Part shown: piece after piece, positions 16,201 to 52,832 of the stretch
Layout of the letters: each line of letters begins with the position of its first letter
How positions within the stretch are numbered: the first letter of the stretch is position 1
NCBI GenBank assembly: GCA_038044985.1
Contig: JBBSYY010000012.1
Location: 5,973-69,972, forward strand
Source of the DNA: Nanobdellota archaeon
GTDB lineage: Archaea > Nanobdellota > Nanobdellia > Pacearchaeales > GW2011-AR1
DNA length: 64,000 nt
Direction: 5' to 3'
Notes under the pieces: generated by a model
Told to the model about the DNA's origin: nothing
What the model saw: only the letters and a program-made list of their open reading frames with translations
Databases searched by the model: none
Translations under genes and position numbers: made by a program

Positions 16201-16201
16201 C

Positions 16202-16669
16202 TCACAACATCCTCTCAATAAGTTTATTTATATCTTTTCCGTTATTTCCCAATACCCCTTTAGGATAAACCAGTTTACTTTTTATTCCTTTTCTAGGAGG
16301 ATGAAGCCTAAAAAAAGGCTTTAATTCAAAATCAGAAAGTTTTTTTCCTTTGATTAGATTATCAGCAACCTCTTCGACATTAATTTTTATTTTATTTTTA
16401 TCGCCTTCGACAGATTTTGCCCTTTCTTTAATTAATTTAACTAGAATATTCTTATCAATCTCGCCATAAGCGATATAAAACTTTACCTTTTTCAACATTC
16501 CTTCATTATTTTTATTTCTAGTAATTAAGATACAAGCATATTTTCTTCTTAATCTCAATCTATCTAAAGTTCCAGCAATATCTTTTTTTACATCAACCAT
16601 TCCAGAAATTCTAATTACTGCTAATAACTTATTCTCTGAAAGTAATTTTTCTTTTTTTGTATCTGCCAT
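16202..16669 (-). CDS. rpl30: 50S ribosomal protein uL30
   Basis: LAVIRISGMVDVKKDIAGTLDRLRLRRK motif typical of archaeal L30/L7e. Confidence 0.9.
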   Translation of the reverse strand: MADTKKEKLLSENKLLAVIRISGMVDVKKDIAGTLDRLRLRRKYACILITRNKNNEGMLKKVKFYIAYGEIDKNILVKLIKERAKSVEGDKNKIKINVEEVADNLIKGKKLSDFELKPFFRLHPPRKGIKSKLVYPKGVLGNNGKDINKLIERML

Positions 16670-35119: not shown

Positions 35120-35944
35120 TTAATCATATAATTTTTTTATTCCAGCAATATCTCCGCTATTCAGTGTTCTTTTTTTTGTTTCTCCTATTCCAGCAAATCT
35201 ATACATTGTTTCTTCAGTACAGGAATCAGAAGGATGAGCCATTCCAGCAGTATGTCCTTTTTCGTGTGTTGCAATATTCAGAAAATCCATTACGTTTGGA
35301 TTTATTGTTGCGTCGCCCCAGACAAAATCAGGATCGTTATAAACAACATCAAATTCTACAATTTTTCTATTAAATGTTGGTCCTGAAAAAACTCCCCAAA
35401 CTATTGCTACTGCAATTACTCTTGGATCTAAAATACTTCCAAATAAAACCTCGTTTTTTCCGTCTGGTGATAAAATATCAGCACCATTAACTATTAGACT
35501 AGTATTTCTTGTTCCAAAAACATCGAAAGCAACTTGGTCATCCCAAGCATTAAAACTTACTTCAACTGAATCAGCAACAAAACTATCACTCAAACCATCT
35601 GAATTTGTTGTATCTAAAACATATTGTTCTGTTGTTTTCCATTTTGCTCCTTTTGCAAGAAAAGCATAGCAAGTAGTATCACCTAGATGTGAACTACCTC
35701 CACGATGGCTTGCTTCGTCTTTTTTCTTTATTATCATATATCCTTCAACTACCTCTCCATTAACATCAACTGCGCTTCCAAGACTAAAAAGCCCTGGAGC
35801 AAGTTCTACAGCATGGCTTGGAACAATAACCTCTGCTCCTCCATTAGAAACAGCAGTTGTAAAATTTGGTATAGCCATAACTATTGAGAACATTACTATT
35901 AATAATAAAACGCTAATTAATCCAATAAATAAATGTTTTTTCAT
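35120..35944 (-). CDS. Secreted metzincin (matrixin/M10-like) zinc metalloprotease
   Basis: Signal-peptide-like N-terminus, an HEKGHTAGMAH (HExxHxxGxxH) zinc site and a downstream Met-turn (TMYRF). Confidence 0.75.
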   Translation of the reverse strand: MKKHLFIGLISVLLLIVMFSIVMAIPNFTTAVSNGGAEVIVPSHAVELAPGLFSLGSAVDVNGEVVEGYMIIKKKDEASHRGGSSHLGDTTCYAFLAKGAKWKTTEQYVLDTTNSDGLSDSFVADSVEVSFNAWDDQVAFDVFGTRNTSLIVNGADILSPDGKNEVLFGSILDPRVIAVAIVWGVFSGPTFNRKIVEFDVVYNDPDFVWGDATINPNVMDFLNIATHEKGHTAGMAHPSDSCTEETMYRFAGIGETKKRTLNSGDIAGIKKLYD

Positions 35945-36152: not shown

Positions 36153-37580
36153 ATGAAAGTCCTATTAATAGCTCCAAATTATCTGAAAGTGTATAGTTAT
36201 GTTTCTGAAGAGGCGACAATGATTTTGCCTCCTTTAGGATTAGTTTATATTGCTAGTTATTTAAGAGCAAAGGGAGTTGAGATACAAGTTCTAGATTTTG
36301 CTGCGCTAAGATCAAATACAGAAATGGAAAGAAATCTTATAGCAAAAAGTAAGGCAGATCTTGTTGCAATGGCTGCTACAACTAATACTATTATGGAGGC
36401 TTATAATTTAGCGAAAATAACAAAACAAATTCTGCCAAATGCAAAAGTTGCTGTTGGCGGACCTCATCCAACCATGGAGCCAATAAAAACCTTACAAGAA
36501 TGTTCTGAAATAGATTATTGTGTTATAAGCGAGGCAGAAGAAACAATGTTGGAATTATCAATAGCTTTAGAAAATGGAAAACCTATTAATACAATACTTG
36601 GTTTATCTTATAGAGACGATAAAAATAATAATGAAATTCAAGTAAATGCTTCAAGGCCTTTAATACAAGACTTAGACAGTTTGCCTTTTCCAGCTAGAGA
36701 TTTACTTCCATTAAAAAAATATTGGACTCCAGGTGTAAGAAGATATCCTTTCGCGACAATAATGACCTCGCGTGGATGTCCGTACAGCTGTACTTTTTGC
36801 AGTAATTTTAAAACTCAGGGTAAGCAGTTTAGATTTAGAAGTCCTGAAAATGTTTTAGCTGAAATAGATGAGTTAGTAACTAAATATGGTGTAAAGGAAA
36901 TAAATATAATTGATGATAATTTTACTTTCCTGCCTAAAAGAGTTAAAGAAATTTGCGATTTATTAATAAAAAGAAAATATGATTTAGAATTAAAAACTGG
37001 AAATGGAATAAGATCAGATAGAGTTTCTCTGCCAATGTTAAAGCACATGAAAAAAGCTGGATTTTATTTAGTTGCATTTGGTATTGAGTCTGGAAATCCA
37101 GAAATATTAAAGAAAATGAGGAAAGGAGAGACTAAAGAACAATTAAGAAATTCGGTTAAGATGGCCAAGCAAGCTGGTTTAATAACAGAAGGATTTTTTA
37201 TGTTTGGAAATGAAGGAGAGGGTAGGAAAGAGATGCTAGACACAATAGAATTCGCTAAAGAACTTGATTTGAATATTGCTCAATTCCAAGTTTATACGCC
37301 TGTTCCAGGAAGTCCTTATTATGAGAAAATAGCAAAAGAAGGTAAGGTATTTTCAACAAAATGGGAAGACTTTAATGCTTTTAATGAACCTTTATTTGAG
37401 TATGGAGAAAGCAAATATGACTTAATGATTGAAATGCAGAGAAGAGCTTACAGAGAATATTATTTCAGACCTAAAATGATTGTAAAGAAATTATTAGAAG
37501 TTAGAAATTTAAAACAATTTCATGCTTATGTTAAAGCAGGAATGGCTGTTGCGAAGATGAGTGTGGGGAAGGCGACGTAG
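36153..37580 (+). CDS. B12-binding-domain radical SAM protein
   Basis: N-terminal cobalamin-binding-like Rossmann domain and SRGCPYSCTFC (Cx3Cx2C). Confidence 0.8.
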   Translation: MKVLLIAPNYLKVYSYVSEEATMILPPLGLVYIASYLRAKGVEIQVLDFAALRSNTEMERNLIAKSKADLVAMAATTNTIMEAYNLAKITKQILPNAKVAVGGPHPTMEPIKTLQECSEIDYCVISEAEETMLELSIALENGKPINTILGLSYRDDKNNNEIQVNASRPLIQDLDSLPFPARDLLPLKKYWTPGVRRYPFATIMTSRGCPYSCTFCSNFKTQGKQFRFRSPENVLAEIDELVTKYGVKEINIIDDNFTFLPKRVKEICDLLIKRKYDLELKTGNGIRSDRVSLPMLKHMKKAGFYLVAFGIESGNPEILKKMRKGETKEQLRNSVKMAKQAGLITEGFFMFGNEGEGRKEMLDTIEFAKELDLNIAQFQVYTPVPGSPYYEKIAKEGKVFSTKWEDFNAFNEPLFEYGESKYDLMIEMQRRAYREYYFRPKMIVKKLLEVRNLKQFHAYVKAGMAVAKMSVGKAT

Positions 37581-38456: not shown

Positions 38457-39347
38457 ATGAAGAACATGAAAGTAATAATGATTGATGCTTTTAAACCCAG
38501 CTATCTAGAACATGCGCCATATTTAAAATCTTTAACAGAAAAATACCAATATGGAGAATTAGATATGGGAATTGGGCATTGGAACGGTGTAGAGACTTTA
38601 TTTAGTGGCAAGTCGGAAATTATTTCTCTTTTTTATAAGAGTAATAATAATTCTTTAAAATTTATTAGATATTTTTTATGGCTAAAAATATTTGGAAAAA
38701 TTGGAAGATTTTTAGTAGAAGCTTTAGTTAATTTTCCTAGATTGATGAATGGATATGAATTAGTTAAAACAAGAAATATTCCTCTAAATATATTATATAA
38801 ATTTAATATAAGTGTGAAAAGACATTTCGCCAAAAAAGATGATATAGAATTTAGATATTTTGGAGAGCTTGATAAGATAGGCCATAAATATGGAACAAAA
38901 AGTCTGGAAATTATTAAAGCAATAAATGAGGTAGATAAAAAAATTTCAAAAATGGGGTGGGATTTAATTTTTTCAGATCATGGAATGGCTGATATTGAGA
39001 AAACTATAGAAGTTCCTATAACAGAAGATTGTTTTATTGACTCTGATATGGCTAGATATTGGGGTAATGAAAAAGAATTAAAAATAATAAGGGAAAAACT
39101 TCCTCTAGAATATGGAAAAATAATTAATTGGAATGAAAAATATGGAAATTTAATATTTTTAGCTAATACTGGAATTTTAATATATCCAAATTTTTGGAAC
39201 GAAAAACTAGTAAAGGCAATGCATGGTTATGACGGTAAAGATAAAGATATGAAAGCTTTTTACATAATAAAAATAAACGGCAAGAGAAAAGATTTAGTTG
39301 CTGAAGAACTTTATAATGAATTAAAAAATTATGAGTTATCAAAATAA
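38457..39347 (+). CDS. Alkaline-phosphatase-superfamily enzyme (type I phosphodiesterase/nucleotide pyrophosphatase-like)
   Basis: MIDAFKPSY, LDKIGHKYG and SDHGM metal-ligand motifs. Confidence 0.6.
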   Translation: MKNMKVIMIDAFKPSYLEHAPYLKSLTEKYQYGELDMGIGHWNGVETLFSGKSEIISLFYKSNNNSLKFIRYFLWLKIFGKIGRFLVEALVNFPRLMNGYELVKTRNIPLNILYKFNISVKRHFAKKDDIEFRYFGELDKIGHKYGTKSLEIIKAINEVDKKISKMGWDLIFSDHGMADIEKTIEVPITEDCFIDSDMARYWGNEKELKIIREKLPLEYGKIINWNEKYGNLIFLANTGILIYPNFWNEKLVKAMHGYDGKDKDMKAFYIIKINGKRKDLVAEELYNELKNYELSK

Positions 39348-42899: not shown

Positions 42900-43904
42900 C
42901 TAGTATTTGTCATTCTTATTTTGCAAAGATAAAATTTTCTCTCTTAGATCTAGAAAGGTCGGGGCATAAGTACCAATATGTTTTACAGTTATCCCTGCTG
43001 CTAAATTTCCTATTTTTGCTGCGTTTATTAAAGAATCTAATGAATTATCAGACGATGCTAAAGCTAAAGCAATTGCTGCTATGGCTGTATCTCCTGCTCC
43101 AGTTTCTTCAAAAGATTCTTCTGGAATTGTTTCTATTTCTATTATGGTATTAGTTAATGGGAACAACATCATTCCTTCTTTCCCTAAGGTTATCAATATA
43201 TTAGAATCAAATTTCTGTCTTAATTTACAACCAGCATCATCAATAGAATACTCTCCAGACATTTTAAGGGCCTCGTCTTTACTAGGCGTTATCAAAAAAG
43301 AATTCTTATAAATAGTATTAAAATTTTTGTTGTCTGGTTTAGGATCTATTATTATCTTATTTTTGTAAGGATGTAAATAATTTATAAGATCCTGTGTAAT
43401 TGCCCCCTTTGCATAATCAGAAATAATTATTTTATCTGCTTTTTCAGCTGCTTGTAAAAGATTATCAATATCTTTAAACTTTTTTTCTGAAATTTCTTCT
43501 CTGTCGATTCTTACTATATGTTGCTTTTGGCCAGAGCTTCTTCCGATAACCCTTTCTTTCATAATTGTTGTATCACTTTTTTCAAAATAATAATTGATCC
43601 TATTATTACTTAAAATTTTTTTTAGTTCATTCCCATAAAAATCTTCTCCCACGAAACTAAAAAGATAAATCTCTCCTTTAGTAGAAAGATTTACTACATT
43701 TAGAGCTACATTTGCAGCTCCTCCTGGTTTGTAAAATTCTTCTTCTACACTAAGAACTGGCACAGGAGCTTCTGGGCTTATTCTTTTAACACGGCCAATA
43801 GTATATTTATCTAGTATAACGTCTCCTATAACAAGAATATTCTTATTGTAAAAATTATTTAAAACATCTAATAAATTTTTCATATAATCGAGATTAGAAA
43901 GCAA
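42900..43904 (-). CDS. PfkB-family sugar kinase, D-glycero-beta-D-manno-heptose-7-phosphate kinase-like (HldE/RfaE domain I)
   Basis: GGAANVALN and TGAGDT motifs; adjacent to the adenylyltransferase-domain gene. Confidence 0.7.
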   Translation of the reverse strand: MLSNLDYMKNLLDVLNNFYNKNILVIGDVILDKYTIGRVKRISPEAPVPVLSVEEEFYKPGGAANVALNVVNLSTKGEIYLFSFVGEDFYGNELKKILSNNRINYYFEKSDTTIMKERVIGRSSGQKQHIVRIDREEISEKKFKDIDNLLQAAEKADKIIISDYAKGAITQDLINYLHPYKNKIIIDPKPDNKNFNTIYKNSFLITPSKDEALKMSGEYSIDDAGCKLRQKFDSNILITLGKEGMMLFPLTNTIIEIETIPEESFEETGAGDTAIAAIALALASSDNSLDSLINAAKIGNLAAGITVKHIGTYAPTFLDLREKILSLQNKNDKY

Positions 43905-43935
43905 TATAAAAAGTTTTATATTCTCCAGATCGATT

Positions 43936-44415
43936 CTATACCTTTCTTATTCTTTTTATAATATCACTAGTAGAATATCCTTTCTCTAACTCAAATGTTT
44001 TATACTTACCCCCACATTTTTCAATAAGTTCTTTTTCTTCGTTAATTCTTTCTTCAATCCAAGTTCCTCCTTTAACATGGATATTGGGTTTTATTCTTTC
44101 TAAATATTCCAGAGGCCTGTCTTGTGGAAAAATAACTACATAATCTACTGGTTTTAATTCAGATAAAAGATAAGCTCTTTCATTTTCAGGAATTATAGGT
44201 CTATCAAGACCTTTATTTATTCTTACAGATTCGTCGCTGTTTAACAATACAATAAGAACATCTCCTAAATCTTTTGCTTTTTTTAAAAATCTTATATGGG
44301 CTGAATGAATTAAGTCATAACTTCCATTTGTAGTAATAATTGTTTTATTTTGTAGTCTTAACTCTTTGGCCAATCCTTCAATTTCTTCTATTGTTCTTAT
44401 TCCATAAGCGCTCAT
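43936..44415 (-). CDS. Cytidylyltransferase-fold D-beta-D-heptose-1-phosphate adenylyltransferase-like (HldE/RfaE domain II)
   Basis: TNGSYDLIHSAHIRFLKKA (HxGH-type) motif; 159 aa. Confidence 0.7.
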   Translation of the reverse strand: MSAYGIRTIEEIEGLAKELRLQNKTIITTNGSYDLIHSAHIRFLKKAKDLGDVLIVLLNSDESVRINKGLDRPIIPENERAYLLSELKPVDYVVIFPQDRPLEYLERIKPNIHVKGGTWIEERINEEKELIEKCGGKYKTFELEKGYSTSDIIKRIRKV

Positions 44416-44475: not shown

Positions 44476-46323
44476 TCAAACTTTAGCAGGATATCTTTCT
44501 TTTTCTATAACTCTATCTATCTTATCACTACTATTGCCATTATCATCAGTTGAATATAAAACATTGTCATATAGATGATGTCTGACGGCTGTAGATAATA
44601 CTTTCGAGTCTAAAGTTCCGTTTAATTTTTCATTTGCATATCTTACAACCCCTTCAATAGCTAATTCTGATTTTGGCAAAACTGCGAAATAAGGTGCGAG
44701 ATTCTCTAGTTCTTGAATTCCAAAATTTCTTTCTGAAATAAATTTTCTAACTCTGGCTAGATTTTTCAGAATTTCTTTTGATTCTAGATTGTTTTGATTA
44801 TCTAATAATTTTCTTAAATGCTCTTCTGTTCCTTTCCCTAGGCTTTCATAACTAAACTCGCTTTTATTTAAATAGGATTCCGCGAGTTTATGTCCTTCTG
44901 GAACTAAAGTTATAAAATTGAAAATTCTTCTAAGCTCTGCATTTTTATTCCTATAATCTTCTAAAGAATCTTGATCAAGCCATACACCTAAGTCATTTTT
45001 TATTTCCTTTAATCTTGGTCCTCTCCATTCTTTTGGGAACCTTAAAACAGATCTATCAAAAAAAGTATCTGGAACATCACTATTATCTCCATTATAATGG
45101 CCGTTCTCTTCACAATAAGCTCCAAGTTTTGTTCCTTTATATGGAGCAAGGGTAGATGCCCATGCCATTGAAGGACCTCCTGATTCTTGTCTTAGTCTTA
45201 CATTTAATTCAACCAATTCTAAATCTGCTTCTAGATTCATTTTTGTTGGTTTCGTAGTTGCTCCATAGGGCAATCCCGTAATTTGTTCTGTCCTTACTTT
45301 AAAGTCATTTTCTATTAAATATTTCATTCCTTCAAACATTAAATCTTCTGGCATTGCCCTGTCTAATACTTCCTCTCTTATATTTCGATCTGCAGCTTCA
45401 ATTGCTAGTGTTAAACCAAAACAACCTGCTTCTCTTAAAAGATCTAATCTTTTTTTATCTTTAGTCATCTCCCATCTCATTTGAGCATGATAAGGAATTC
45501 CTACCTCATTCATATAATGATCTTTAAACTTTACAAGCCATTCTTTGATATCAAATCCGTGAACATCATCTTGACAATAAAGAACTTTTGTCGGCCATTT
45601 TTCAGCAATTTCTCTAGTCTCTCTAATAACATCATCTACACTTCTAATATTAAATGGAAATAATCTACCATAACCTAGTTTATTCAATTTAGAACTAGAA
45701 CATTCAGAATTAGGTTGGTCAATAACGGGAAGCATTGATAATTTTATTTGTTCTATAATTTTTGGGGGGGCTGAAATATCCTCTGGTCCACTACTATTAT
45801 AACAATAAGTGCATTTATATGGGCAGCCAGTCATAGTGATAAAACTTTTAATGTAACTGTTTGCATGTTGAGGATGTAATTTATAAAAAGTTTTTCTATC
45901 AGGATGGGGAAATTGTTCCTTTTCTTTCATTGGCATAATTCCTTTTTCTGCCTCTCCCTTCAAAATTTTTCTTAATGAATGAAAACCTTCGCTCATAACT
46001 ACGTAATCTGCATGTTTTTCTGCTTCTGATGGAAAGTAAGTTGCATGGGGTCCTCCAATAACTGTGATTATATCAGGATAATCTTTTTTTAGTCTTTCAT
46101 AAGCTTCAAATAATTGTAAATGATTTCCTGTATAAATATTAAAACCAATTATATCTGGCTTAAAATCTTTTATTTTTTCAAAAAATTCTTTAAAATTGTG
46201 GTCTTTTACTAAATGATAATTTCTTTCCCATCCTAAATCTCTTGCTAAACCACCTAAATGCAATAATCCAAGAGGTTCGATAACTGAATAAGTTGCACCA
46301 AAAAGTATCCTTTTTTTTGACAT
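44476..46323 (-). CDS. B12-binding-domain radical SAM protein (615 aa)
   Basis: N-terminal B12-binding-like domain, MTGCPYKCTYC (Cx3Cx2C) and a long C-terminal extension. Confidence 0.8.
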   Translation of the reverse strand: MSKKRILFGATYSVIEPLGLLHLGGLARDLGWERNYHLVKDHNFKEFFEKIKDFKPDIIGFNIYTGNHLQLFEAYERLKKDYPDIITVIGGPHATYFPSEAEKHADYVVMSEGFHSLRKILKGEAEKGIMPMKEKEQFPHPDRKTFYKLHPQHANSYIKSFITMTGCPYKCTYCYNSSGPEDISAPPKIIEQIKLSMLPVIDQPNSECSSSKLNKLGYGRLFPFNIRSVDDVIRETREIAEKWPTKVLYCQDDVHGFDIKEWLVKFKDHYMNEVGIPYHAQMRWEMTKDKKRLDLLREAGCFGLTLAIEAADRNIREEVLDRAMPEDLMFEGMKYLIENDFKVRTEQITGLPYGATTKPTKMNLEADLELVELNVRLRQESGGPSMAWASTLAPYKGTKLGAYCEENGHYNGDNSDVPDTFFDRSVLRFPKEWRGPRLKEIKNDLGVWLDQDSLEDYRNKNAELRRIFNFITLVPEGHKLAESYLNKSEFSYESLGKGTEEHLRKLLDNQNNLESKEILKNLARVRKFISERNFGIQELENLAPYFAVLPKSELAIEGVVRYANEKLNGTLDSKVLSTAVRHHLYDNVLYSTDDNGNSSDKIDRVIEKERYPAKV

Positions 46324-46490: not shown

Positions 46491-48410
46491 TTATTTTGTG
46501 CTTTCAACTCTTTCCCAAGAATCTGAATGTCTCTTTTGAAGTACTTTAGAATTAAAAATAACATAAGACCACATAAATAGTCTTGCAAATAATAAGTTAA
46601 CCCCCCATAAAAATTCTTTTAAATTAGCTGGATAAGAAAATAAATTTAAAGCTCCTTTAGTTTCATTATAAAAAGTTTTGCTTCTTGGGGTTATATCTAT
46701 ATCTACATAATCACCTAAGTTCTCGTGGGCGAGACTTGTTCTAACTTTTTGTTTTAGCCATTCTTCTAAGTTATTGACGTTTTTAACAAAAACTTTTGCT
46801 TTTTCAGCATAAGCTATTTTGTACCCTTTTTCCCAGAACATATAAGGAACTATTGTATCTTCTGCCGTATCTAGGGGGAAGGAGTTAATAACATTATTTC
46901 TAAATGCAAATAAATATCCTGAACACTCTAAAAATCTGTTTTCTTTAAAAGCTTGTTTTCTCATCTTATGAGCATGTTCAAAAAGAAAATTTGCCCAGTA
47001 GCCGTATTTTGTTTCTCTGGATTCTTCTGGCACTGGCCTTCCTGCCACGCAACCAATAGAGGAATCATTAAATAATTTTATTATCTCATTTATTGCATTA
47101 TCATCCAGATAAACATCCCCATCTGTAAAAATTAAAATTCCTTCATTAATAGTTGGTAATAAAAGATTTAAAGCTAGACTTTTTCCTTTTCCAGGGTCTT
47201 TAAATAAAGAAATTTTTTTATATTTTTCAGAATATTTTCTGACTACATCTTGAGTTTCTTTATCTGGGGCAGATACTATAATATGAAAAGGATGGTCGAT
47301 TTTTTGATTTAAAATAGATTCAATAGCCATTTCTATTTTAGGTTCTTTATAAGAAGTTATTACAATGGCAAGAGAAACCTTGCTTAATTCTTCTAATGCT
47401 TTTATAACTTCTTCTAAAGAAATTTTTTCCATGCTTTTACAATCTTTTTGCATGCATTCAGAACAATCTGATTTGGCCAATATTATTTTTCCATGCCCAA
47501 ATGTTTCTTTTTCATTTTTTGGAGTTGGTCCTATTAGGCATATATTTTTCTTTTTTAAGGCAAGAGCTATATGAAGTCCAAGTGAATCGGTTGCTATAAC
47601 ATAATTACAAACACTAATTAATGCTGGAAAATCTATTAAATCGTTTCCTGTTCCTGCATCAATTACGGGAGAATTAGACAGAGACATTATCTCTTTATTT
47701 CTTTCTACTTCATTTGAACCTCCAAATAAAATAATTTTGCATTTAAATTTTTTATAAATTTTATCAATAAGTTTTGCGCTCAAATCAATAGGAAGTGATT
47801 TAGGCCAGCGGTCAGCTCCTCCAAGAACTAATCCTAGAACAATTTCATTGCCTATATTATATCTTTTTTTAAATTCTTCAGCTTTTTTTATTTGATAATT
47901 GCTAAGCCTTAAAAAAGGCTCGTATTTTTTCCAGTTTTTAATTTCTACAACTTCTGACATTAATTGTCTATGAGTTTTTTTGCAGGTTCTTTTAAGGTAG
48001 TCATTCTTAGAAATTTTACCAAGCTCTGAATCTATTATAGTTTTGTCTCCTAATAAACTCATATCATACCATTCTTTTGCTGTCTGGCTTGGAACAATCT
48101 TATTGTCCATCAAAAAAAAACCCAGCTTTTTACATTTAAAATAAGAGATTAACTCTGAATAAATTCTATCTTCTTCTAGATTTATTATAAGATCAAAGCT
48201 CTCTTTTTTTAAATTCTCCCTGTTAAATTCAGAATCTATTATCACTTTTTCAATATAAAGATTATTAATAAAAAGAGGTTTTGCTTTTTTGTCTGTAAGC
48301 CAAAAAATTCTTGGATTAAACTTCTTGTATTTATCTCTTAAAGCTTGAGCTATAAAACTTGTTCTAACAACGTCTCCTAGAGCTCCTATTTTTATAATTA
48401 GAATTTTCAT
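46491..48410 (-). CDS. Fusion protein: GT9 (heptosyltransferase-like) N-terminal domain plus GT2 C-terminal domain
   Basis: MKILIIKIGALGDVVRTS is a classic GT9 start. The C-terminal half has LAIVITSYKEP... and FTDGDV (DxD), typical of GT2. Confidence 0.7.
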   Translation of the reverse strand: MKILIIKIGALGDVVRTSFIAQALRDKYKKFNPRIFWLTDKKAKPLFINNLYIEKVIIDSEFNRENLKKESFDLIINLEEDRIYSELISYFKCKKLGFFLMDNKIVPSQTAKEWYDMSLLGDKTIIDSELGKISKNDYLKRTCKKTHRQLMSEVVEIKNWKKYEPFLRLSNYQIKKAEEFKKRYNIGNEIVLGLVLGGADRWPKSLPIDLSAKLIDKIYKKFKCKIILFGGSNEVERNKEIMSLSNSPVIDAGTGNDLIDFPALISVCNYVIATDSLGLHIALALKKKNICLIGPTPKNEKETFGHGKIILAKSDCSECMQKDCKSMEKISLEEVIKALEELSKVSLAIVITSYKEPKIEMAIESILNQKIDHPFHIIVSAPDKETQDVVRKYSEKYKKISLFKDPGKGKSLALNLLLPTINEGILIFTDGDVYLDDNAINEIIKLFNDSSIGCVAGRPVPEESRETKYGYWANFLFEHAHKMRKQAFKENRFLECSGYLFAFRNNVINSFPLDTAEDTIVPYMFWEKGYKIAYAEKAKVFVKNVNNLEEWLKQKVRTSLAHENLGDYVDIDITPRSKTFYNETKGALNLFSYPANLKEFLWGVNLLFARLFMWSYVIFNSKVLQKRHSDSWERVESTK

Positions 48411-49588
48411 TTTATTTTTACCAGCTTCTCATACTCTTTCATATATTTTTTATAAATAATATCCCAATCATAATTTTTTGATTTTTCTATATTTTTTTTA
48501 GCTATTTCCTCCATTAATTTTTTATTGTTAATCAAATAAAGAATTTTTTCTTCTAATTTTTCAACATCTCCATAGCTAACAAAAAATCCATTTTCAGGTT
48601 CTTTCATTTCATAAGGAACTCCATTAACTGGAGAGGCAATTATTGGAAGCCCTGAAGCCATTGCTTCAAATAAAGTTAAAGGCAACCCTTCTCTATAACT
48701 TGGCAGAACATAAATATTTGCTGCTTGGTACATTTCAGCAATTTTTTCTTTTCCCCTTATAGGCCCTAAATATTGCATATTTTCATAATTTTTTATTAAG
48801 CTCTTAATTTCTTCTGCTTTACCTTCATCAGGTCCAACCCAAATAAAAGCTATATCTTTTCTTTTTTTTGTTATGTTAATAGCTGCTTTTGCTAACATCT
48901 CAGGCCCTTTTGTTGGATTTAGTCTTCCAAAAAATAAAATTAAGTATTTTTCTTTAATACTATAATTTTTTTTAAAATTGTTGTTAACTATTTTTTTAAA
49001 TAATATTTTATCTGTTCCGTTGGGAATAACAAGTATTTTATTCCGGTTTTTTTTATCTACATGTTTATTCAAAATATCTAATTCCCAGGGCGTTAATGCA
49101 ATTATTTTATCAATCATATTAAAAGATAGTTTATTAAAAATTAAATCATTTATAAACAAAAATGGCTTTAAAATTTTAGGCCTGAAAGAAGCATCTGTCC
49201 AAGGACAGTGGGTTGTATGAATATGTTTAAAGCCTTTTATTCTTGACAGCAATCCTATAATTAAAACATATAAATGTCCTGAAACATGGCTATGAACAAT
49301 ATCAAACTTTACATTATTTTCATCAAATCTCAATAACAAAGATGGCCAGATAAAAGTATTTAAAGATAACCTAGCAATATAAGGCAATCTATGAACATGA
49401 ACTCCTTCTAATATTTCTTCTTTTATTTTTATTCTTGAATTTTTATCTGAATCACAACAAAAAACATGAACTTCATGGCCTTCTTTAACTTGCCTTTGTG
49501 CAAGCTCATAAATAACTTGTTCTACTCCTCCAAAAGTGGGCAGATAAAACATATTTACATGACAAATTTTTAGTTTCAGAAATTTCAT
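48407..49588 (-). CDS. GT4-family (group 1) glycosyltransferase
   Basis: EGLPLTLFEAMASGLPIIAS (E-x7-E) motif; 4-nt overlap with the downstream GT9-GT2 gene. Confidence 0.85.
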   Translation of the reverse strand: MKFLKLKICHVNMFYLPTFGGVEQVIYELAQRQVKEGHEVHVFCCDSDKNSRIKIKEEILEGVHVHRLPYIARLSLNTFIWPSLLLRFDENNVKFDIVHSHVSGHLYVLIIGLLSRIKGFKHIHTTHCPWTDASFRPKILKPFLFINDLIFNKLSFNMIDKIIALTPWELDILNKHVDKKNRNKILVIPNGTDKILFKKIVNNNFKKNYSIKEKYLILFFGRLNPTKGPEMLAKAAINITKKRKDIAFIWVGPDEGKAEEIKSLIKNYENMQYLGPIRGKEKIAEMYQAANIYVLPSYREGLPLTLFEAMASGLPIIASPVNGVPYEMKEPENGFFVSYGDVEKLEEKILYLINNKKLMEEIAKKNIEKSKNYDWDIIYKKYMKEYEKLVKIK

Positions 49589-49635
49589 TGTGAAATGAGG
49601 ATTTGAAAATCCTTGATTTCCATTATTTTCATTGT

Positions 49636-51846
49636 TTATTCAACAAAAACTTTCTCTCCATTTTTAATTTTATCAATTATTATTTTTGAAATTTTTGGTC
49701 TCATAAACCAATTAGGAATCGGCTTTCCTGCTTGTAAAAGTTTTCTAATTTCGGTTCCTGAAATATTCATTTTATAATCTTCTGGATGATCCACAAAATC
49801 TAATTCATGAACATATTTATTTTCCAGATTAGAGTAGAATACATTGCCAAACTTTATCGGAATTATTCCAAGCTCTTCTTGATTAAATTTATCAAAAATT
49901 TCATGTGAGGATTTAGGGTGGTAAAAATTTCCTACGCCCGTGTGATCTCTCCCAACAATAAAATGAGAACATCCAAAATTTTTTCTTACTAAAGCAGTGA
50001 ATAAAGCTTCTCTTGGACCAGCATACCTAGAATGTGTTAAAAAAGTTCCCATAACTACTTTTGATTTTGGATATAAGTTCATCATCTCTTCATAAGTTTT
50101 TATTATAATATGCGGTTGAAAATCACCAGATTTTTTACTTCCAACTACTGGATGAATGAACAAACCATCACAAAGCCCTCTTTTCATTGCTTCAAGCTGA
50201 ATAAATTCATGACTTCTGTGTATTACATTTCTTGTGTGAAAACCGACTACTTTACTCCAACCCCTCTCTGAAAAAATTTTTCTTGTTTGATTGGGAGTAA
50301 ACTCATGAATTCTATAATCAGATATTCTTTTTTTTAATAAGGTTATTCCTCCTCCTAAAAAAAATTCATCGCACTCTAAAAAATTTTTAACCCCGGGATG
50401 AGTGGGGTCTTTTGTTCCATATATTTTATCTACAACTAATTCTTTATCTACTTTATAAATTTCTTTTAAATGTAAAATCCCCCTTATTTCTCCATTTTTG
50501 GTTAAAGCTATGTTTTCTCCCTCAATAAGGCTACTTTTTACATCTTCATTAACGGCCAAAAAAATTGGCAGTGGCCAAATAATATTGTTAGTTAACCTCA
50601 TATCATTTATAACAGAATTAAAATCCTTAGAGTCCATAAACCCATCTAATGGGCTAAAAGCTCCTATAGCTAAGTTTTCTAAATCCATTAAAGTTTCTTC
50701 ATTTATTTCTATTTTTTTTATCGGCAGAGGCCCTTTATAATTTGGGTTAAACCTATTTATTAATACCCCCCCATGCGGTTTAATAAGCAATTCTGGAAAG
50801 TTATCTGATTCTAAATAATTTATTTTTTCTATTTTTTCAATAATATTTTCTCCTTGTTCTTTGTTTAATAATTCTATCTGATTAAATAGGTTTAGTAAAA
50901 TATTTACTGTTTCAACAGGATATTTTCCAATTGCAGTTTCTTTTGTTAAAGCAATTCCTGTTGCTCCATCTAAGATGCTATTTATGATATCGTTGACCTC
51001 TGCTTTATTAGGTTTTAGAGCAAAAGCCATTTGCTCTAAAGTGTTTGTAGCTATAAATGCTTCTTTTCCAAACTCTTTAACTTTTTTTAAAATTAATTTT
51101 TGGGCAAATGGAATTTTTTCTAGAGGAATTTGAGTTCCTAAGTCGCCCCTATCTATAAGAATTCCATCTGAAACTTTAGTTATTTCTAAAAAATTTTTCA
51201 GGCCTTTTTTAGATTCAATTTTGGAGTATACAATTGAATTAGGATAAATTTGTTTAAATTTAATCACGCTTTCTGGAGATTCCATAAAAGACAAAGTGAA
51301 GTGCAATATTCCATATTTTTTTGCTAATTCTATAGCCTTATAATCTTTCTTGCTAAAAGGAGATAACGAGAATGTTTGACTATCAATATGAACTGCTTTT
51401 CTAGCTCCAATTAATCCGCCAATTATGGCCTTACATGATATATATCCATTTTCTTTTGTTGTAGTGTCAAAAACCCTTAATAAAAGAGAATTAAAATCTA
51501 TAGAAATTAAATCGCCGACTTCTAAACCCCTAATAATTCCTTCTGGACTTAAGAATATTTTATTAGAGTCACATTTTACCCTACTAGAAAATAGTTTAAT
51601 AATCTCTCCTTCTCTTAAAAAAAGATCCTCAATGTTGCCAGATCTTATCTGTGAACCTTCTGTGTCTAATATTATAGAGGGCCCGTAACCTAAAAGATCT
51701 TTTATTCTTTGATCTATATCATCTTCTTCGGTATGAGATAAATTTATCCTAAAAAAATCAACTCCCCTGTCTTTAAATCTTTCTAAAATTTCTGGATAAT
51801 TTGAACTAGGTCCAATAGTACATATAATTTTCACTTTTTTTAGCAT
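49636..51846 (-). CDS. Fusion protein: pyruvate-kinase-like barrel domain (N) plus sulfate adenylyltransferase / ATP sulfurylase (C)
   Basis: N-terminal half: KIICTIGPSS, RINLSH, ILDTEGSQIR, IDRGDLG and TKETAIGKYP, matching the pyruvate kinase catalytic core. C-terminal half: PHGGVL, FSPLDGFM, GFHTRNVIHRSHE and VGRDHTGVG, matching ATP sulfurylase signatures. Confidence 0.8.
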   Translation of the reverse strand: MLKKVKIICTIGPSSNYPEILERFKDRGVDFFRINLSHTEEDDIDQRIKDLLGYGPSIILDTEGSQIRSGNIEDLFLREGEIIKLFSSRVKCDSNKIFLSPEGIIRGLEVGDLISIDFNSLLLRVFDTTTKENGYISCKAIIGGLIGARKAVHIDSQTFSLSPFSKKDYKAIELAKKYGILHFTLSFMESPESVIKFKQIYPNSIVYSKIESKKGLKNFLEITKVSDGILIDRGDLGTQIPLEKIPFAQKLILKKVKEFGKEAFIATNTLEQMAFALKPNKAEVNDIINSILDGATGIALTKETAIGKYPVETVNILLNLFNQIELLNKEQGENIIEKIEKINYLESDNFPELLIKPHGGVLINRFNPNYKGPLPIKKIEINEETLMDLENLAIGAFSPLDGFMDSKDFNSVINDMRLTNNIIWPLPIFLAVNEDVKSSLIEGENIALTKNGEIRGILHLKEIYKVDKELVVDKIYGTKDPTHPGVKNFLECDEFFLGGGITLLKKRISDYRIHEFTPNQTRKIFSERGWSKVVGFHTRNVIHRSHEFIQLEAMKRGLCDGLFIHPVVGSKKSGDFQPHIIIKTYEEMMNLYPKSKVVMGTFLTHSRYAGPREALFTALVRKNFGCSHFIVGRDHTGVGNFYHPKSSHEIFDKFNQEELGIIPIKFGNVFYSNLENKYVHELDFVDHPEDYKMNISGTEIRKLLQAGKPIPNWFMRPKISKIIIDKIKNGEKVFVE

Positions 51847-51926
51847 TTTTTTAATATATTTAACTGATTTAAATACATTGTTATACTTGATGCTAGATTT
51901 ATAAAATAGGTATAGTAATTATTATA

Positions 51927-52832
51927 ATGGAAGAAATAGACTTTATAGGAATAGGAGCCGGGAGATCTGGAACTACGTGGATAGTGAATATTCTCTCAAA
52001 ACATCCACAAATATGTTGTCCATATATAGGAAAACTAAATTATTTTTCTGCCACTAGACCATATAATAAAACATCAGAATATGATAAAAGAGGGATTAAA
52101 GGATATCTTGACTTATTTAAAAGTTGCAAAAAAGGACAAGTGAGAGGAGAGTTCAGTTCATATTATATGGTTAATCCAAAAATTGCTAAAATAATTAAAA
52201 AACATTTCCCAAATGTTAAAATATGGGCTTGTTTAAGAGAGCCTATTGAAAGAGCTTATTCTGACTGGCTTGCATTTAAAAGATTTAAGCTAAAAGAAAA
52301 AGATAGTTTTAAAGTTGCATTTTTTAAAGAACAAACTGGGCTTTATCCAAATGGCGATGGTTATAGGCACAGAGGATTTTATTACAAACAATTAAAGTCC
52401 TATTTTGCTTTATTTCCAAAAAAGAACATTAAAATAATACTATATGACGATATTGTAAAAAATCCTGAAAAAGTTGCAAGAGAGTTTTATGATTTTTTAG
52501 GAGTAGACAGTAATTATAAACCTAAAAATTTAAAAGAAAAACCGGCTAAATCTACTGAAACTAGATTTAAATTTATCAGAAGTATTATAACCTTTTTGTC
52601 AGAAATTTCTCATAAATTAGAAGAAAGTAATTTTGGAGCGATTATTTTTTTAATAAAAAGAAAAACAAAAATTAATGAATTATTTAATAAAATAAATGAC
52701 ATTAATGTTAAGGAATCTAAAAAACCGAAGTTAGAATCAGAGGTTAGGGAAAGACTGAAAAAGGTATATATAAAAGATATAGAGAAACTAGAAAAATTAA
52801 TTAGTAGGGATTTAAGTTCATGGAAAAAATAA
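51927..52832 (+). CDS. PAPS-dependent sulfotransferase-family protein
   Basis: IGAGRSGTTW (5'-phosphosulfate-binding loop) and CLREPIERAYS (3'-phosphate-binding motif). Confidence 0.75.
   Translation: MEEIDFIGIGAGRSGTTWIVNILSKHPQICCPYIGKLNYFSATRPYNKTSEYDKRGIKGYLDLFKSCKKGQVRGEFSSYYMVNPKIAKIIKKHFPNVKIWACLREPIERAYSDWLAFKRFKLKEKDSFKVAFFKEQTGLYPNGDGYRHRGFYYKQLKSYFALFPKKNIKIILYDDIVKNPEKVAREFYDFLGVDSNYKPKNLKEKPAKSTETRFKFIRSIITFLSEISHKLEESNFGAIIFLIKRKTKINELFNKINDINVKESKKPKLESEVRERLKKVYIKDIEKLEKLISRDLSSWKK

What the first reader, a model, noticed from the sequence alone, without database searches (positions are those of the whole stretch)
49636..52832. Pyruvate-kinase-like domain fused to ATP sulfurylase, next to a sulfotransferase, with no APS kinase in sight
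- **The fusion:** The 736-aa protein joins a seemingly complete pyruvate kinase catalytic core to a complete sulfate adenylyltransferase. The kinase motifs are CTIGPSS, RINLSH, LDTEGSQIR, DRGDLG and TKETAIGKYP. The sulfurylase motifs are PHGG, FSPLDGFM, HTRNVIHRSHE and GRDHTGVG. I do not know this architecture from characterised sulfate-activation enzymes, where the usual fusions are to APS kinase or to a PUA-like domain.
- **Neighbour:** A divergently transcribed PAPS-type sulfotransferase, with both PAPS-binding motifs, sits 80 nt away.
- **Missing step:** No CysC-like APS kinase is visible in the window.
- **Hypotheses (inference):** The kinase-like domain may drive the unfavourable sulfurylase step by local ATP regeneration from PEP. 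More speculatively, it may supply the missing phosphorylation step.
- **Context:** The surrounding genes imply sulfation of a surface glycan.
Basis: partly seen in the sequence, partly recalled or inferred. Interest (0 to 1): 0.65.

Follow-up and report, generated by a model that had tools for sequence, protein, structure and literature searches.

The report
Pyruvate-kinase module fused to sulfate-activating enzyme
A groundwater archaeon encodes one protein that joins an intact-looking pyruvate kinase core to ATP sulfurylase, next to a sulfotransferase; this undescribed but widespread design most likely uses phosphoenolpyruvate to regenerate ATP and clear ADP while activated sulfate (PAPS) is made for glycan sulfation.

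Summary
ORF 49636-51846(-) encodes 736 aa made of a pyruvate kinase A+B barrel, a PUA_2 domain and ATP sulfurylase. A PAPS-type sulfotransferase is transcribed divergently 80 nt away. No APS kinase lies in the 64-kb window or about 5-10 kb beyond it.

The fusion is not rare. All 120 best database clusters share it. It occurs in DPANN archaea, CPR bacteria and at least ten other bacterial lineages, always in MAGs or SAGs and mostly in glycan gene clusters that often include a sulfotransferase. Open-access literature searches found no description of it.

The "missing kinase" is only local. Eighteen of 120 relatives carry a C-terminal APS kinase. At least 34 more have a stand-alone cysC on the same contig, including the closest relative. 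One appears to have it on another contig of the same MAG. PK+APS-kinase fusions also exist. So the PK module accompanies APS kinase and does not replace it.

The PK module keeps all canonical catalytic and ligand residues. It also forms its own clade with an invariant E-Q-N signature near the K+ site.

Best reading: a PEP-driven ATP-regenerating, ADP-scavenging module for PAPS synthesis. This is a new variant of a known kind and is biochemically untested.

The parts
49636..51846 (-). Whole fusion gene, 736 aa: PK(A+B) - linker - PUA_2 - ATP sulfurylase
   Evidence: ORF. Pfam and NCBIfam. AlphaFold2 model with mean pLDDT 91.4 and pTM 0.87. The identical protein occurs on independent contigs.
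50857..51846 (-). Pyruvate-kinase-like module (aa 1-330; Pfam PK barrel aa 3-314 = nt 50905-51840). It has the A-domain TIM barrel plus the B-domain lid and no C domain.
   Evidence: - PF00224 E 1.2e-60 over the full profile.
- E. coli PykF E 5e-50, aligned to PykF 1-333.
- Catalytic and ligand residues R33 N35 S37 H38 D61 T62 R68 K150 K209 E211 R233 G234 D235 T267 E303 are invariant or near-invariant in 119 relatives.
- Clade signature E63/Q66/N268.
- Foldseek matches to PKM2 and PykF.
50785..50856 (-). Inter-module linker (aa 331-354)
   Evidence: The region lies between the Pfam domains. It is a variable stretch in alignment A1. pLDDT dips to about 77-83 and the region is partly helical.
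50332..50784 (-). PUA_2 domain of ATP sulfurylase (aa 355-505), including PHGG (357-360) and FSPLDGFM (397-404)
   Evidence: PF14306 E 7e-45. H358, G359, S398, P399, G402 and F403 are invariant in A1.
49672..50301 (-). ATP-sulfurylase catalytic domain (aa 516-725), including HTRNVIHRSHE (537-547) and GRDHTGVG (632-639)
   Evidence: PF01747 E 6e-75. NF003166 and TIGR00339 score above their curated cut-offs. The best solved relative is M. thermolithotrophicus ATPS 8a8d, E 1.4e-86, with TM 0.93 and rmsd 2.2 A.
51847..51926 (.). 80-nt AT-rich divergent intergenic region between the fusion and the sulfotransferase. It contains a TATA-like TTTATAAAA about 20-30 nt upstream of the sulfotransferase ATG.
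   Evidence: Read directly. Its role as a promoter is inference only. The sigma-70 scan is not applicable to an archaeon.
51927..52832 (+). PAPS-type sulfotransferase (301 aa), divergently transcribed
   Evidence: PF00685 E 4e-16 and PF13469 E 7e-16. Motifs GRSGTTW at nt 51960-51980 and REPIERAYS at nt 52236-52262. A sulfotransferase gene lies beside or near the PK-ATPS gene in 14 of 29 loci examined.
49589..49635 (-). 47-nt gap between the fusion's stop codon and the next gene (GT4). This is where relatives carry an overlapping stand-alone APS kinase gene.
   Evidence: Sequence read. No APS-kinase remnant was found. Relative L016 has the order fusion - APSK - small ORF - GT4 - GT2 - PMT.
46491..49588 (-). 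Downstream co-directional glycosyltransferases: GT4 (48407-49588) and a GT9/GT2 fusion (46491-48410). These are context and likely users of the sulfated glycan pathway.
   Evidence: Pfam annotation of the same genes on contig L001. A GT4 gene also follows the fusion in L004 and, after the kinase and a small ORF, in L016; L005 has other glycosyltransferases nearby.

Best explanation
The gene encodes a sulfate-activating enzyme with a built-in, catalytically active pyruvate-kinase module.

**Proposed reactions**
- The C-terminal PUA-ATPS half makes APS from ATP and sulfate.
- An APS kinase converts APS + ATP to PAPS + ADP. In this genome it must be encoded elsewhere; in relatives it is fused or adjacent.
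- The N-terminal PK module converts that ADP back to ATP using PEP.
- Net reaction: sulfate + ATP + PEP -> PAPS + PPi + pyruvate.

**Proposed benefit**
- ATP stays high for both ATP-consuming steps.
- ADP stays low, so APS kinase is not trapped in its dead-end enzyme-ADP-APS complex.
- The unfavourable sulfurylase equilibrium is pulled forward.

**Downstream use**
- The PAPS feeds the divergently transcribed sulfotransferase, which sulfates a surface glycan built by the surrounding glycosyltransferase cluster.

**Shown:** the architecture, conservation of catalytic residues, the gene-neighbourhood associations, and the distinct PK clade.
**Inferred:** the PK module's substrates (PEP and ADP), physical cooperation with an APS kinase acting in trans, and the identity of the sulfated product.
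For: 1. The PK half matches the whole A+B profile and aligns end to end with PykF 1-333. The canonical PEP, Mg2+, K+ and nucleotide-phosphate ligands mapped from PykF are kept in 116-119 of 119 relatives, nearly all in 118-119. This implies purifying selection on phosphotransfer chemistry. The ATP-contacting Arg (R68) and Lys (K150) are among them.
2. The same PK clade is fused to whichever PAPS-pathway enzyme is present:
   - PK+ATPS: about 85 of the 150 nearest representatives.
   - PK+ATPS+APSK: 18 of 120 close clusters.
   - PK+APSK without ATPS: P0157 and P0201, confirmed by Pfam.
   - Stand-alone PK module beside a sulfotransferase: P0121.

   PK fused directly to APS kinase, the only ADP-producing step, is what an ADP-to-ATP recycler predicts.
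3. A stand-alone cysC overlaps or abuts the fusion gene in L007, L016, L027, L030, L031, L033, L036 and L100. By contig-length fingerprint, a cysC shares a contig with at least 34 of 102 two-domain clusters.
4. Sulfotransferase genes lie within 10 kb in 14 of 29 loci across archaea and bacteria.
5. In-vitro precedent (PMC9885120): without PK/PEP, ADP accumulates and PAPS is 'practically missing'. With PK, ADP disappears and PAPS rises. The authors attribute this to relief of the dead-end APS kinase-ADP-APS complex.
6. A distant relative, P0265, is PK-PK-adenylate kinase. That is another adenylate-recycling pairing.
7. The sulfurylase half passes curated equivalog-level thresholds and superposes on a solved archaeal ATPS, M. 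thermolithotrophicus 8a8d.
Against: - No enzyme of this family has been assayed, so the substrates are inferred.
- ATP sulfurylase itself produces no ADP. A PK-ATPS protein without APS kinase therefore only makes sense if a kinase acts in trans. None was found in the window, in about 5-10 kb beyond it, or by fingerprint on the 78-kb contig.
- 17 of 29 loci have no APS kinase within the available flank.
- The clade has invariant changes right at the active site: PykF K68->E, E71->Q (the rabbit E117 K+-dependence position) and Q279->N. Ser312, recalled as part of the proposed proton relay, is Thr in this protein and Ala in most of the clade. These could mean altered cation dependence or a different acceptor.
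- The fusion could simply carry the cell's housekeeping PK with no kinetic coupling.
Confidence: 0.62

Rival explanations
1. Housekeeping PK by accident of fusion. The N-terminal module is simply the organism's glycolytic pyruvate kinase, C-domain-less and unregulated, that became fused to sat. There is no functional coupling beyond co-expression.
For: All PK catalytic residues are intact. DPANN genomes are streamlined and short PKs without a C domain exist (an NCBIfam 352-position PK model, NF005234, matches). Annotation pipelines already call these proteins 'pyruvate kinase'.
Against: - The module forms its own monophyletic clade with an invariant E-Q-N signature that none of the seven signature-lacking ~457-474-aa PKs in the set carries.
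- The same clade is repeatedly partnered with ATPS, APSK or sulfotransferase genes, and sits inside glycan clusters, in phyla with large genomes such as Acidobacteriota, Planctomycetes and Rhodospirillales. Those organisms would be expected to have ordinary PKs (expectation, not checked).
- A random housekeeping fusion would not recur with three different partners from one pathway.
Confidence: 0.12
2. Altered-substrate kinase. The E-Q-N PK module uses PEP to phosphorylate a sulfonucleotide-pathway metabolite other than ADP. Examples would be acting as a PEP-dependent APS 3'-kinase, or re-phosphorylating PAP or AMP. APS kinase would then be dispensable where it is absent, as in this window.
For: - 17 of 29 loci, including this one, have no APS kinase within about 10 kb, although a PAPS-type sulfotransferase is adjacent.
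- No cysC fingerprint was found for the 78-kb, 856-kb or 867-kb contigs among the two top-120 APS kinase lists.
- The clade-specific invariant substitutions lie next to the K+ and phosphate site.
- APS is isosteric with ADP (general chemistry).
Against: - Fused or adjacent canonical APS kinase in 12 of 29 loci and 18 of 120 clusters, with the same PK signature, makes a redundant APS-kinase role unlikely.
- PK+APSK fusions exist.
- One MAG appears to have cysC about 500 genes away from the fusion (RL557_233 vs RL557_732), so local absence does not mean genomic absence.
- The nucleotide-phosphate ligands R68 and K150 are unchanged.
- PK chemistry transfers phosphate to a terminal phosphate oxygen, not to a ribose 3'-OH (established enzymology).
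- The negative fingerprint evidence comes from lists truncated at 120 of about 8000 hits.
Confidence: 0.07
3. Structural or regulatory domain. The PK module no longer turns over substrate and instead serves as an oligomerisation scaffold or PEP/nucleotide sensor for the sulfurylase. This would resemble the inactive APS-kinase-like allosteric domain of fungal ATP sulfurylase.
For: There is precedent for degenerate regulatory domains in sulfate-activation enzymes: the P. chrysogenum ATPS C-terminal domain and the Entamoeba / T. denitrificans ATPS-like domains, summarised in bioRxiv 10.64898/2026.04.02.716029. The proposed proton-relay Ser (PykF S312) is Ala in most of the clade.
Against: Near-perfect conservation of every metal, PEP and nucleotide ligand across relatives as low as 33-50% identical is not what degenerate domains show. 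The lid (B) domain is retained and confidently modelled.
Confidence: 0.08

Closest known systems
Bifunctional PAPS synthase (ATP sulfurylase + APS kinase on one chain; e.g. human PAPSS1/2, Aquifex aeolicus SAT/APS kinase PDB 2gks)
   Same: It is a multidomain sulfate-activation enzyme feeding PAPS-dependent sulfotransferases. The sulfurylase half is homologous (2gks E 7.5e-68, PAPSS about 1e-26 to 1e-28). 18 of 120 close relatives also carry the APS kinase domain at the C terminus.
   Different: The window protein has no APS kinase domain. It has an N-terminal pyruvate-kinase module that no described PAPS synthase has. Relatives therefore show PK-PUA-ATPS-APSK, a four-domain order not listed among the known arrangements in the literature read here.
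Stramenopile trifunctional APS kinase-ATP sulfurylase-pyrophosphatase (Bradley et al. 2009, as cited in bioRxiv 10.64898/2026.04.02.716029)
   Same: The logic is the same: an accessory enzyme is fused to the sulfate-activation core and removes a by-product or supplies driving force to overcome the unfavourable sulfurylase equilibrium.
   Different: The accessory there hydrolyses PPi, the product of the sulfurylase. The accessory here is a PK expected to remove ADP, the product of APS kinase, and regenerate ATP from PEP. The lineages also differ: eukaryotic algae versus DPANN, CPR and diverse bacteria.
Canonical pyruvate kinase (EC 2.7.1.40; e.g. E. coli PykF, PDB 1pky/4yng; rabbit/human PKM)
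   Same: It shares the A-domain barrel plus the B-domain lid, and all canonical catalytic, Mg2+, K+ and nucleotide-phosphate ligands.
   Different: - It has no C-terminal allosteric/tetramerisation domain.
- It falls below the curated full-length PK thresholds (TIGR01064 244.8 vs 306.4).
- It has invariant E/Q/N at PykF positions 68/71/279, where the seven signature-lacking ~457-474-aa PKs in the set and PykF have K/Q, E/K and Q/E.
- It forms a separate clade.
Engineered in-vitro PAPS cascades with PK/PEP ATP regeneration (PMC9885120; An et al. 2017 as cited there)
   Same: The enzyme set and proposed purpose are the same: ATPS + APS kinase + PK/PEP to recycle ADP and prevent APS kinase inhibition.
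   Different: Those are man-made mixtures of separate enzymes. This is a natural single polypeptide, or a compact gene cassette.
Methanothermococcus thermolithotrophicus ATP sulfurylase (PDB 8a8d/8a8g)
   Same: It is the closest solved structure for aa ~350-735 (E 1.4e-86, TM 0.93, 38% identity), with the same PUA + catalytic domain layout.
   Different: That enzyme is stand-alone and about 380 aa. In one search its active-site loop reads FQTRNVPHLGHE, whereas this family has FHTRNVIHRSHE: Q->H is invariant in alignment A1, and Ile replaces the Pro in the window protein.

Membership tests
Pyruvate kinase (PF00224 / TIGR01064, EC 2.7.1.40) | A-domain (beta/alpha)8 barrel with an inserted B-domain lid | tested here: met
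   PF00224 covers 2-328 of 328 profile positions at E 1.2e-60. PykF 1-333 aligns at E 5e-50. The AF2 model has pLDDT of about 85-97 over aa 1-330 with a beta-rich insert at about 67-155. Foldseek hits PKM2 and PykF at E about 1e-35.
Pyruvate kinase (PF00224 / TIGR01064, EC 2.7.1.40) | Catalytic Lys, Mg2+ ligands (Glu, Asp), K+ ligands (Asn, Ser, Asp, Thr), PEP-binding Arg, nucleotide-phosphate Arg/Lys and proton-relay Thr. The residue roles come from my knowledge of rabbit/human PK annotation, mapped through PykF. | tested here: met
   R33 N35 S37 H38 D61 T62 R68 K150 K209 E211 R233 G234 D235 T267 E303 are all present and kept in 116-119 of 119 relatives.
Pyruvate kinase (PF00224 / TIGR01064, EC 2.7.1.40) | C-terminal alpha/beta domain (PK_C, PF02887) that forms the tetramer and binds allosteric effectors | tested here: not met
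   There is no PF02887 hit. TIGR01064 matches only 1-337 of 476 positions and scores 244.8 against a cut-off of 306.4. All other full-length PK models also fall below cut-off.
Pyruvate kinase (PF00224 / TIGR01064, EC 2.7.1.40) | Second-shell K+-site residues: Lys at rabbit 114, and Glu (K+-dependent) or Lys (K+-independent) at rabbit 117 | tested here: not met
   The query has E63 and Q66. In the family, E occurs in 117 of 119 and Q in 118 of 119. The signature-lacking ~457-474-aa PKs in the same search carry K/Q and E/K.
Pyruvate kinase (PF00224 / TIGR01064, EC 2.7.1.40) | Catalyses PEP + ADP -> pyruvate + ATP | not testable with these tools
   This needs an enzyme assay.
ATP sulfurylase / sulfate adenylyltransferase (sat; PF14306+PF01747, TIGR00339, NF003166) | Scores above the curated family thresholds over the full PUA + catalytic domains | tested here: met
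   NF003166 scores 419.2 vs 387. TIGR00339 scores 348 vs 322.95.
ATP sulfurylase / sulfate adenylyltransferase (sat; PF14306+PF01747, TIGR00339, NF003166) | Active-site motifs: (Q)xRN loop, HxxH, GRDHAG-type loop | tested here: met
   HTRNVIHRSHE lies at 537-547 and GRDHTGVG at 632-639. H537 is invariant, and T538 R539 N540 H543 H546 R633 D634 H635 are conserved in at least 90% of alignment A1. These align with the 8a8d motifs. The variant is His in place of the usual Gln before TRN.
ATP sulfurylase / sulfate adenylyltransferase (sat; PF14306+PF01747, TIGR00339, NF003166) | Fold of solved ATP sulfurylases | tested here: met
   TM 0.93 normalised to the target and rmsd 2.2 A against 8a8d. TM 0.92-0.93 against 1v47.
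Bifunctional PAPS synthase (ATPS + APS kinase) | APS kinase domain (PF01583) on the same polypeptide | tested here: not met
   There is no PF01583 hit in the window protein. There is no APS kinase signal anywhere in the window. The domain is present in 18 of 120 relatives, so the family straddles this boundary.
PAPS-dependent sulfotransferase (PF00685 / PF13469), for the neighbouring gene | Family HMM above threshold, plus the 5'-phosphosulfate-binding and 3'-phosphate-binding motifs | tested here: met
   PF00685 scores 59.5 vs 22 and PF13469 scores 59.6 vs 27. GRSGTTW lies at aa 12-18 and REPIERAYS at aa 104-112. Assigning these motifs to PSB and PB is by resemblance to the canonical motifs, from my own knowledge.

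The most novel reading that the evidence does not exclude
The E-Q-N pyruvate-kinase clade is not an ADP kinase. It would instead be a PEP-dependent kinase acting on a sulfonucleotide-pathway intermediate, for example making PAPS from APS or recycling PAP. Genomes like this one, with PK-ATPS plus a PAPS-type sulfotransferase and no cysC found locally, would then activate sulfate without a canonical APS kinase.
Probability: 0.07. Interest if true: 0.9.

Novelty: new variant of a known kind. Interest (0 to 1): 0.58.

Why it matters
- **A third natural solution.** If the PK module works as proposed, it would be another way to drive the thermodynamically uphill activation of sulfate, alongside PPi hydrolysis and APS phosphorylation. 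Glycolytic PEP would be wired directly into PAPS synthesis. This appears in organisms with minimal energy and nucleotide budgets (DPANN, CPR) and, sporadically, in many bacterial phyla.
- **Sulfated glycans.** It points to sulfated surface glycans as a common and portable trait of these poorly known lineages.
- **A new PK subfamily.** It defines a distinct, C-domain-less pyruvate kinase subfamily with an unusual cation-site signature.
- **Annotation risk (inference).** MAG metabolic reconstructions may score "pyruvate kinase present" from a protein that belongs to a sulfation cassette. JGI already names several of these proteins "pyruvate kinase".
- **Biotechnology.** PAPS supply limits enzymatic sulfation of heparin and chondroitin. 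Engineers already add PK/PEP to ATPS/APSK mixtures. The natural PK-ATPS-APSK single-chain enzymes found here (for example P0006, P0043, P0048) are ready-made candidates.

Tried and rejected
1. **APS kinase remnant.** I looked for a degraded kinase after the fusion's stop codon or anywhere in the window. The HMM search found nothing (best E 0.43), and the 47-nt gap holds no remnant.
2. **Extending beyond the window.** There is no cysC within about 10 kb to the left or about 5 kb to the right. The rest of the genome (MAG GCA_964360005.1) could not be read with these tools.
3. **Last contig look-up.** I guessed that P0396 might be this MAG's remote cysC. It belongs to another organism and simply showed one more sulfotransferase | fusion | APSK cassette.
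4. **Contig-length fingerprints for large contigs.** I tried to decide whether the 856-kb and 867-kb near-complete contigs have a cysC. No match was found, but the lists are truncated at 120 of about 8000 hits, so this is not evidence of absence.
5. **The window's phosphodiesterase gene.** The window's PF01663 gene (38457-39347) might have been related to the phosphodiesterase domain fused to PK in P0212/P0245. It is not significantly similar (E 0.08), so the lead was dropped.
6. **Promoter and terminator scan.** The sigma-70 scan of the locus is not meaningful for an AT-rich archaeon (30 sites found vs about 20 expected).
7. **Literature.** Six searches for any description of a PK-sulfurylase fusion turned up none.
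8. **Assembly or frameshift artefact.** This is rejected because the identical protein appears on independent assemblies and more than 100 clusters share the junction.

Full report
**1. What is in the sequence**

Window 49636-51846 (- strand) is a 736-aa ORF. Pfam places three domains on it:
- pyruvate kinase barrel PF00224, aa 3-314, E 1.2e-60, covering positions 2-328 of the 328-position profile
- PUA_2 PF14306, aa 355-505, E 7e-45
- ATP-sulfurylase PF01747, aa 516-725, E 6e-75

No PK C-terminal domain is found. NCBIfam puts the C-terminal half above the curated cut-offs for sulfate adenylyltransferase (NF003166 419.2 vs 387; TIGR00339 348 vs 322.95). The full-length PK models match only their first ~337 positions and stay below cut-off.

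The divergent neighbour at 51927-52832 (+) hits Sulfotransfer_1 and Sulfotransfer_3 (E about 5e-16). It carries GRSGTTW (aa 12-18) and REPIERAYS (aa 104-112), which resemble the 5'-phosphosulfate- and 3'-phosphate-binding motifs of PAPS-dependent sulfotransferases (the motif assignment is from my own knowledge). The spacer is 80 nt and AT-rich.

An AlphaFold2 model built on a 33-sequence family alignment is confident throughout (pLDDT 91.4, pTM 0.87). Foldseek matches the C-terminal half to the Methanothermococcus thermolithotrophicus ATP sulfurylase (TM 0.93, rmsd 2.2 A) and the N-terminal half to PKM2 and PykF. No solved structure covers both halves.

The fusion is not an assembly artefact. 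The identical protein is called on several independent contigs.

**2. Organism and context**

The window has about 28% GC. It contains a long ribosomal-protein operon that reads as archaeal (by reading the ORFs). Homologues are named Pacearchaeota, Nanoarchaeota or Woesearchaeota. The contigs come from a 0.1-um-filtered groundwater metagenome (record names 'Hain_H51_01um') and from MAG GCA_964360005.1. So this is a DPANN archaeon.

Around the fusion lie these genes:
- GT4, GT9/GT2 and GT2 glycosyltransferases
- two sugar epimerases/dehydratases
- a dTDP-sugar isomerase and a C-methyltransferase
- B12-radical-SAM enzymes
- a CTP-transferase/PfkB pair
- a PMT-family transferase
- further away, an STT3/AglB oligosaccharyltransferase

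Glycan sulfation is the obvious use of the activated sulfate (inference).

**3. The architecture is common but undescribed**

The 120 best clusters in a 5.8-billion-protein database all have PK+PUA_2+ATP-sulfurylase at 48-70% identity. They are labelled only 'sulfate adenylyltransferase' or 'pyruvate kinase'.

An exhaustive search with the PK module alone against 1.84 billion 50%-identity representatives gave these classes among the top 150:
- about 85 PK+ATPS
- 4 PK+ATPS+APS kinase
- 2 PK+APS kinase with no sulfurylase (P0157 and P0201, Pfam-confirmed)
- about 35-40 complete stand-alone 325-360-aa PK modules
- phosphodiesterase(PF01663)+PK, with or without ATPS
- a distant PK-PK-adenylate kinase protein

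In species-representative genomes the full-length fusion occurs in Woese/Pacearchaeota, three CPR lineages, Acidobacteriota, Gammaproteobacteria/Methylococcaceae, Rhodospirillales, Cytophagia, Planctomycetes, Nitrospina, Longimicrobiales, Dehalococcoidia, Verrucomicrobiota and Chloroflexota. All are MAGs or SAGs.

Six full-text literature searches found no description of such a fusion. The introduction of a 2026 preprint, which lists several fusions of sulfate-activation enzymes, names ATPS-APSK, the stramenopile pyrophosphatase triple fusion and degenerate regulatory domains, but no PK.

**4. The 'missing' APS kinase**

The window has none: an HMM of relatives' kinase tails against all six frames gave a best E of 0.43. 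Neither do the roughly 10 kb to the left or roughly 5 kb to the right that could be recovered from overlapping contigs.

Among the 120 close clusters, however:
- 18 carry a C-terminal PF01583 APS kinase domain.
- At least 34 of the remaining 102 share their exact longest-contig length with a stand-alone APS kinase, including P0002, the closest relative at 70% identity.
- Direct inspection confirms the arrangement. In L007, L016 and L100 a cysC overlaps the fusion's stop codon.
- L016, 67% identical, then continues with a small ORF, GT4, GT2 and PMT. The window runs fusion, GT4, GT9/GT2, so the start of that gene order is kept with the kinase gene missing.
- In one apparent MAG the kinase (RL557_233) lies on a different contig from the fusion (RL557_732), assuming the shared locus-tag prefix marks one assembly.

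Across 29 loci with a full-length fusion, the kinase is fused in 3, within 10 kb in 9, and not within the available flank in 17. A sulfotransferase lies within 10 kb in 14.

Local absence of cysC is therefore frequent and says little about the genome as a whole. Whether this genome has one elsewhere remains open.

**5. Is the PK module active, and is it special?**

I aligned 119 family members to E. coli PykF. The residue roles below are from my knowledge of PK enzymology. These canonical ligands are invariant or nearly so:
- PEP/phosphate Arg (R33)
- K+ ligands (N35, S37, D61, T62)
- nucleotide contacts (H38, R68, K150)
- catalytic Lys (K209)
- Mg2+ ligands (E211, D235)
- the RGD loop, proton-relay Thr (T267) and E303

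This is strong evidence for retained phosphotransfer chemistry.

The family also has its own invariant substitutions at the active-site rim: PykF K68->E, E71->Q (the rabbit E117 position that distinguishes K+-dependent from K+-independent PKs) and Q279->N. This E-Q-N signature is shared by most PK+ATPS, all PK+ATPS+APSK and PK+APSK, and most stand-alone short modules. It is absent from the seven ~457-474-aa PKs in the same hit list that lack it. In a neighbour-joining tree, the 119 signature-bearing modules form one clade with no exceptions inside it (no bootstrap support was computed).

This is therefore a separate PK subfamily dedicated to sulfation loci. Its cation dependence or fine specificity may differ from that of glycolytic PK.

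**6. Mechanism**

The only step in PAPS synthesis that produces ADP is APS kinase. PK converts ADP + PEP to ATP + pyruvate.

The PK module is found fused to APS kinase alone, to ATPS alone and to both, and stands beside sulfotransferases. That pattern fits a general accessory to PAPS synthesis. It does not fit a replacement for one of the steps.

The biocatalysis literature shows why such an accessory helps. With human PAPSS1, omitting PK/PEP leads to ADP accumulation and almost no PAPS. Adding it removes the ADP and restores PAPS. The authors attribute this to relief of the dead-end enzyme-ADP-APS complex on APS kinase (PMC9885120).

I therefore propose that this protein, together with a trans-acting APS kinase, performs sulfate + ATP + PEP -> PAPS + PPi + pyruvate, and that it feeds the adjacent sulfotransferase. 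Confidence is about 0.6. The substrates of the PK module and the existence of a kinase partner in this genome are inferred.

**7. Rivals**

- **Incidental fusion of the housekeeping PK (about 0.12).** This is hard to square with the dedicated clade, the three different pathway partners and the occurrence in large-genome bacteria.
- **Altered-substrate kinase that bypasses APS kinase (about 0.07).** It is disfavoured by the many fused or adjacent APS kinases with the same PK signature. It is not excluded, because 17 of 29 loci, including this one, lack a nearby cysC and the active-site rim is changed.
- **Catalytically dead scaffold or sensor (about 0.08).** This is contradicted by the near-perfect conservation of ligands.

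**8. Comparison with known systems and verdict**

By function, it most resembles a PAPS synthase with a built-in driving module, analogous to the stramenopile APSK-ATPS-pyrophosphatase enzyme. It also mirrors man-made ATPS/APSK/PK cascades.

By membership:
- The C-terminal half is a bona fide ATP sulfurylase, with all tested features met.
- The N-terminal half belongs to the PK superfamily but fails two features of canonical PK: it has no C domain, and it has non-canonical residues at rabbit positions 114 and 117.
- The window protein is not a bifunctional PAPS synthase, because it has no APS kinase domain.

I rate it a new variant of a known kind. It is real, widespread, coherent in its genomic associations, apparently undescribed and biochemically untested. 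Interest is moderate to fairly high (0.58). The fusion is a clean, testable Rosetta-stone link between PEP and sulfate activation with practical value. The 'missing step' mystery that motivated part of the original score, however, is mostly explained by gene-order variation among relatives.

Noticed in passing
window 5884-8634 (-), with 4740-5753 (-), 3616-4569 (-), 2830-3612 (+), 1493-2533 (-): A 916-aa STT3/AglB-type oligosaccharyltransferase sits beside a Glycos_transf_4 (phospho-sugar transferase), an LPG_synthase_TM protein and two GT2 genes (Pfam via overlapping contig L013). The window therefore holds N-glycosylation machinery about 40 kb from the sulfation cassette. The sulfated product could be an N-linked glycan.
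   Followed up: partly
window 42900-44415 (-) and 46491-48410 (-): A split RfaE/HldE-like pair (PfkB kinase plus CTP_transf_like nucleotidyltransferase) and a 639-aa GT9 (heptosyltransferase family)/GT2 fusion. This hints at a heptose-type nucleotide sugar in a DPANN archaeal glycan. Similar PfkB, CTP_transf and GT9 genes recur near the fusion in L004, L005 and L016.
   Followed up: no
window 36153-37580 (+), 44476-46323 (-); also L013 11232-12893 and 13961-15361 (just left of the window): Four B12-binding radical SAM enzymes lie in or next to one glycan region, and another sits near the fusion in L005. They may catalyse C-methylation or other unusual sugar tailoring. Their function is unknown.
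   Followed up: no
window 38457-39347 (+); proteins P0212 (1151 aa) and P0245 (786 aa): The window encodes a PF01663 phosphodiesterase/nucleotide-pyrophosphatase family protein (E 2.6e-9). Elsewhere a PF01663 domain is fused N-terminally to a PK module, with or without PUA-ATPS. The two are not significantly similar (E 0.08), and the fused PK modules fall outside the E-Q-N clade. The role of the fused phosphodiesterase is unknown; it might hydrolyse PPi or PAP.
   Followed up: partly
protein P0265 (1051 aa, 28% identical to the query's PK module): A PK-PK-adenylate kinase fusion. This is another architecture pairing PK with an adenylate-recycling enzyme. Its source organism is unknown.
   Followed up: no
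database annotations of P0027, P0030, P0043, P0046, P0057, P0071 and others; PMC8091004: JGI and UniRef name several of these fusions 'pyruvate kinase', while NCBI names them 'sulfate adenylyltransferase'. DPANN MAG surveys score PYK and sulfate adenylyltransferase as separate capabilities. One gene could satisfy both calls and inflate inferred glycolytic ATP generation or 'sulfate metabolism' (inference).
   Followed up: no
L006 (8.78-Mb contig, ERZ25072979 contig_2) 8883-16400: In a large-genome organism the fusion is flanked by a sulfotransferase upstream and a TauE-family anion permease downstream. An IS66 transposase and a DruA (Druantia) homologue follow. This is consistent with the cassette being mobile. 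The breadth across phyla also suggests horizontal transfer.
   Followed up: no
L010 5739-7625 (about 3 kb right of the window end); window 35120-35944 (-): A CHASE2-sensor adenylate/guanylate cyclase and a matrixin-type (Peptidase_M10) secreted metalloprotease occur in a reduced DPANN genome. Both seem unusual for such organisms (impression from my own knowledge).
   Followed up: no
L013 18196-19665 (about 7 kb left of the window start): A Glycos_transf_3/PYNP_C protein of the thymidine/AMP phosphorylase family. In archaea such enzymes take part in AMP salvage (my knowledge). This is relevant to adenylate economy in an organism that must also dispose of the PAP produced by sulfotransfer. No CysQ-type PAP phosphatase was searched for.
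   Followed up: no
fusion protein aa 537 (window nt 50236-50238) and alignment A1: The sulfurylase active-site loop reads F-H-T-R-N, with an invariant His where the M. thermolithotrophicus enzyme aligned has Gln (FQTRN). In the window protein, Val-Ile follows where that enzyme has Val-Pro. The significance is unknown.
   Followed up: no
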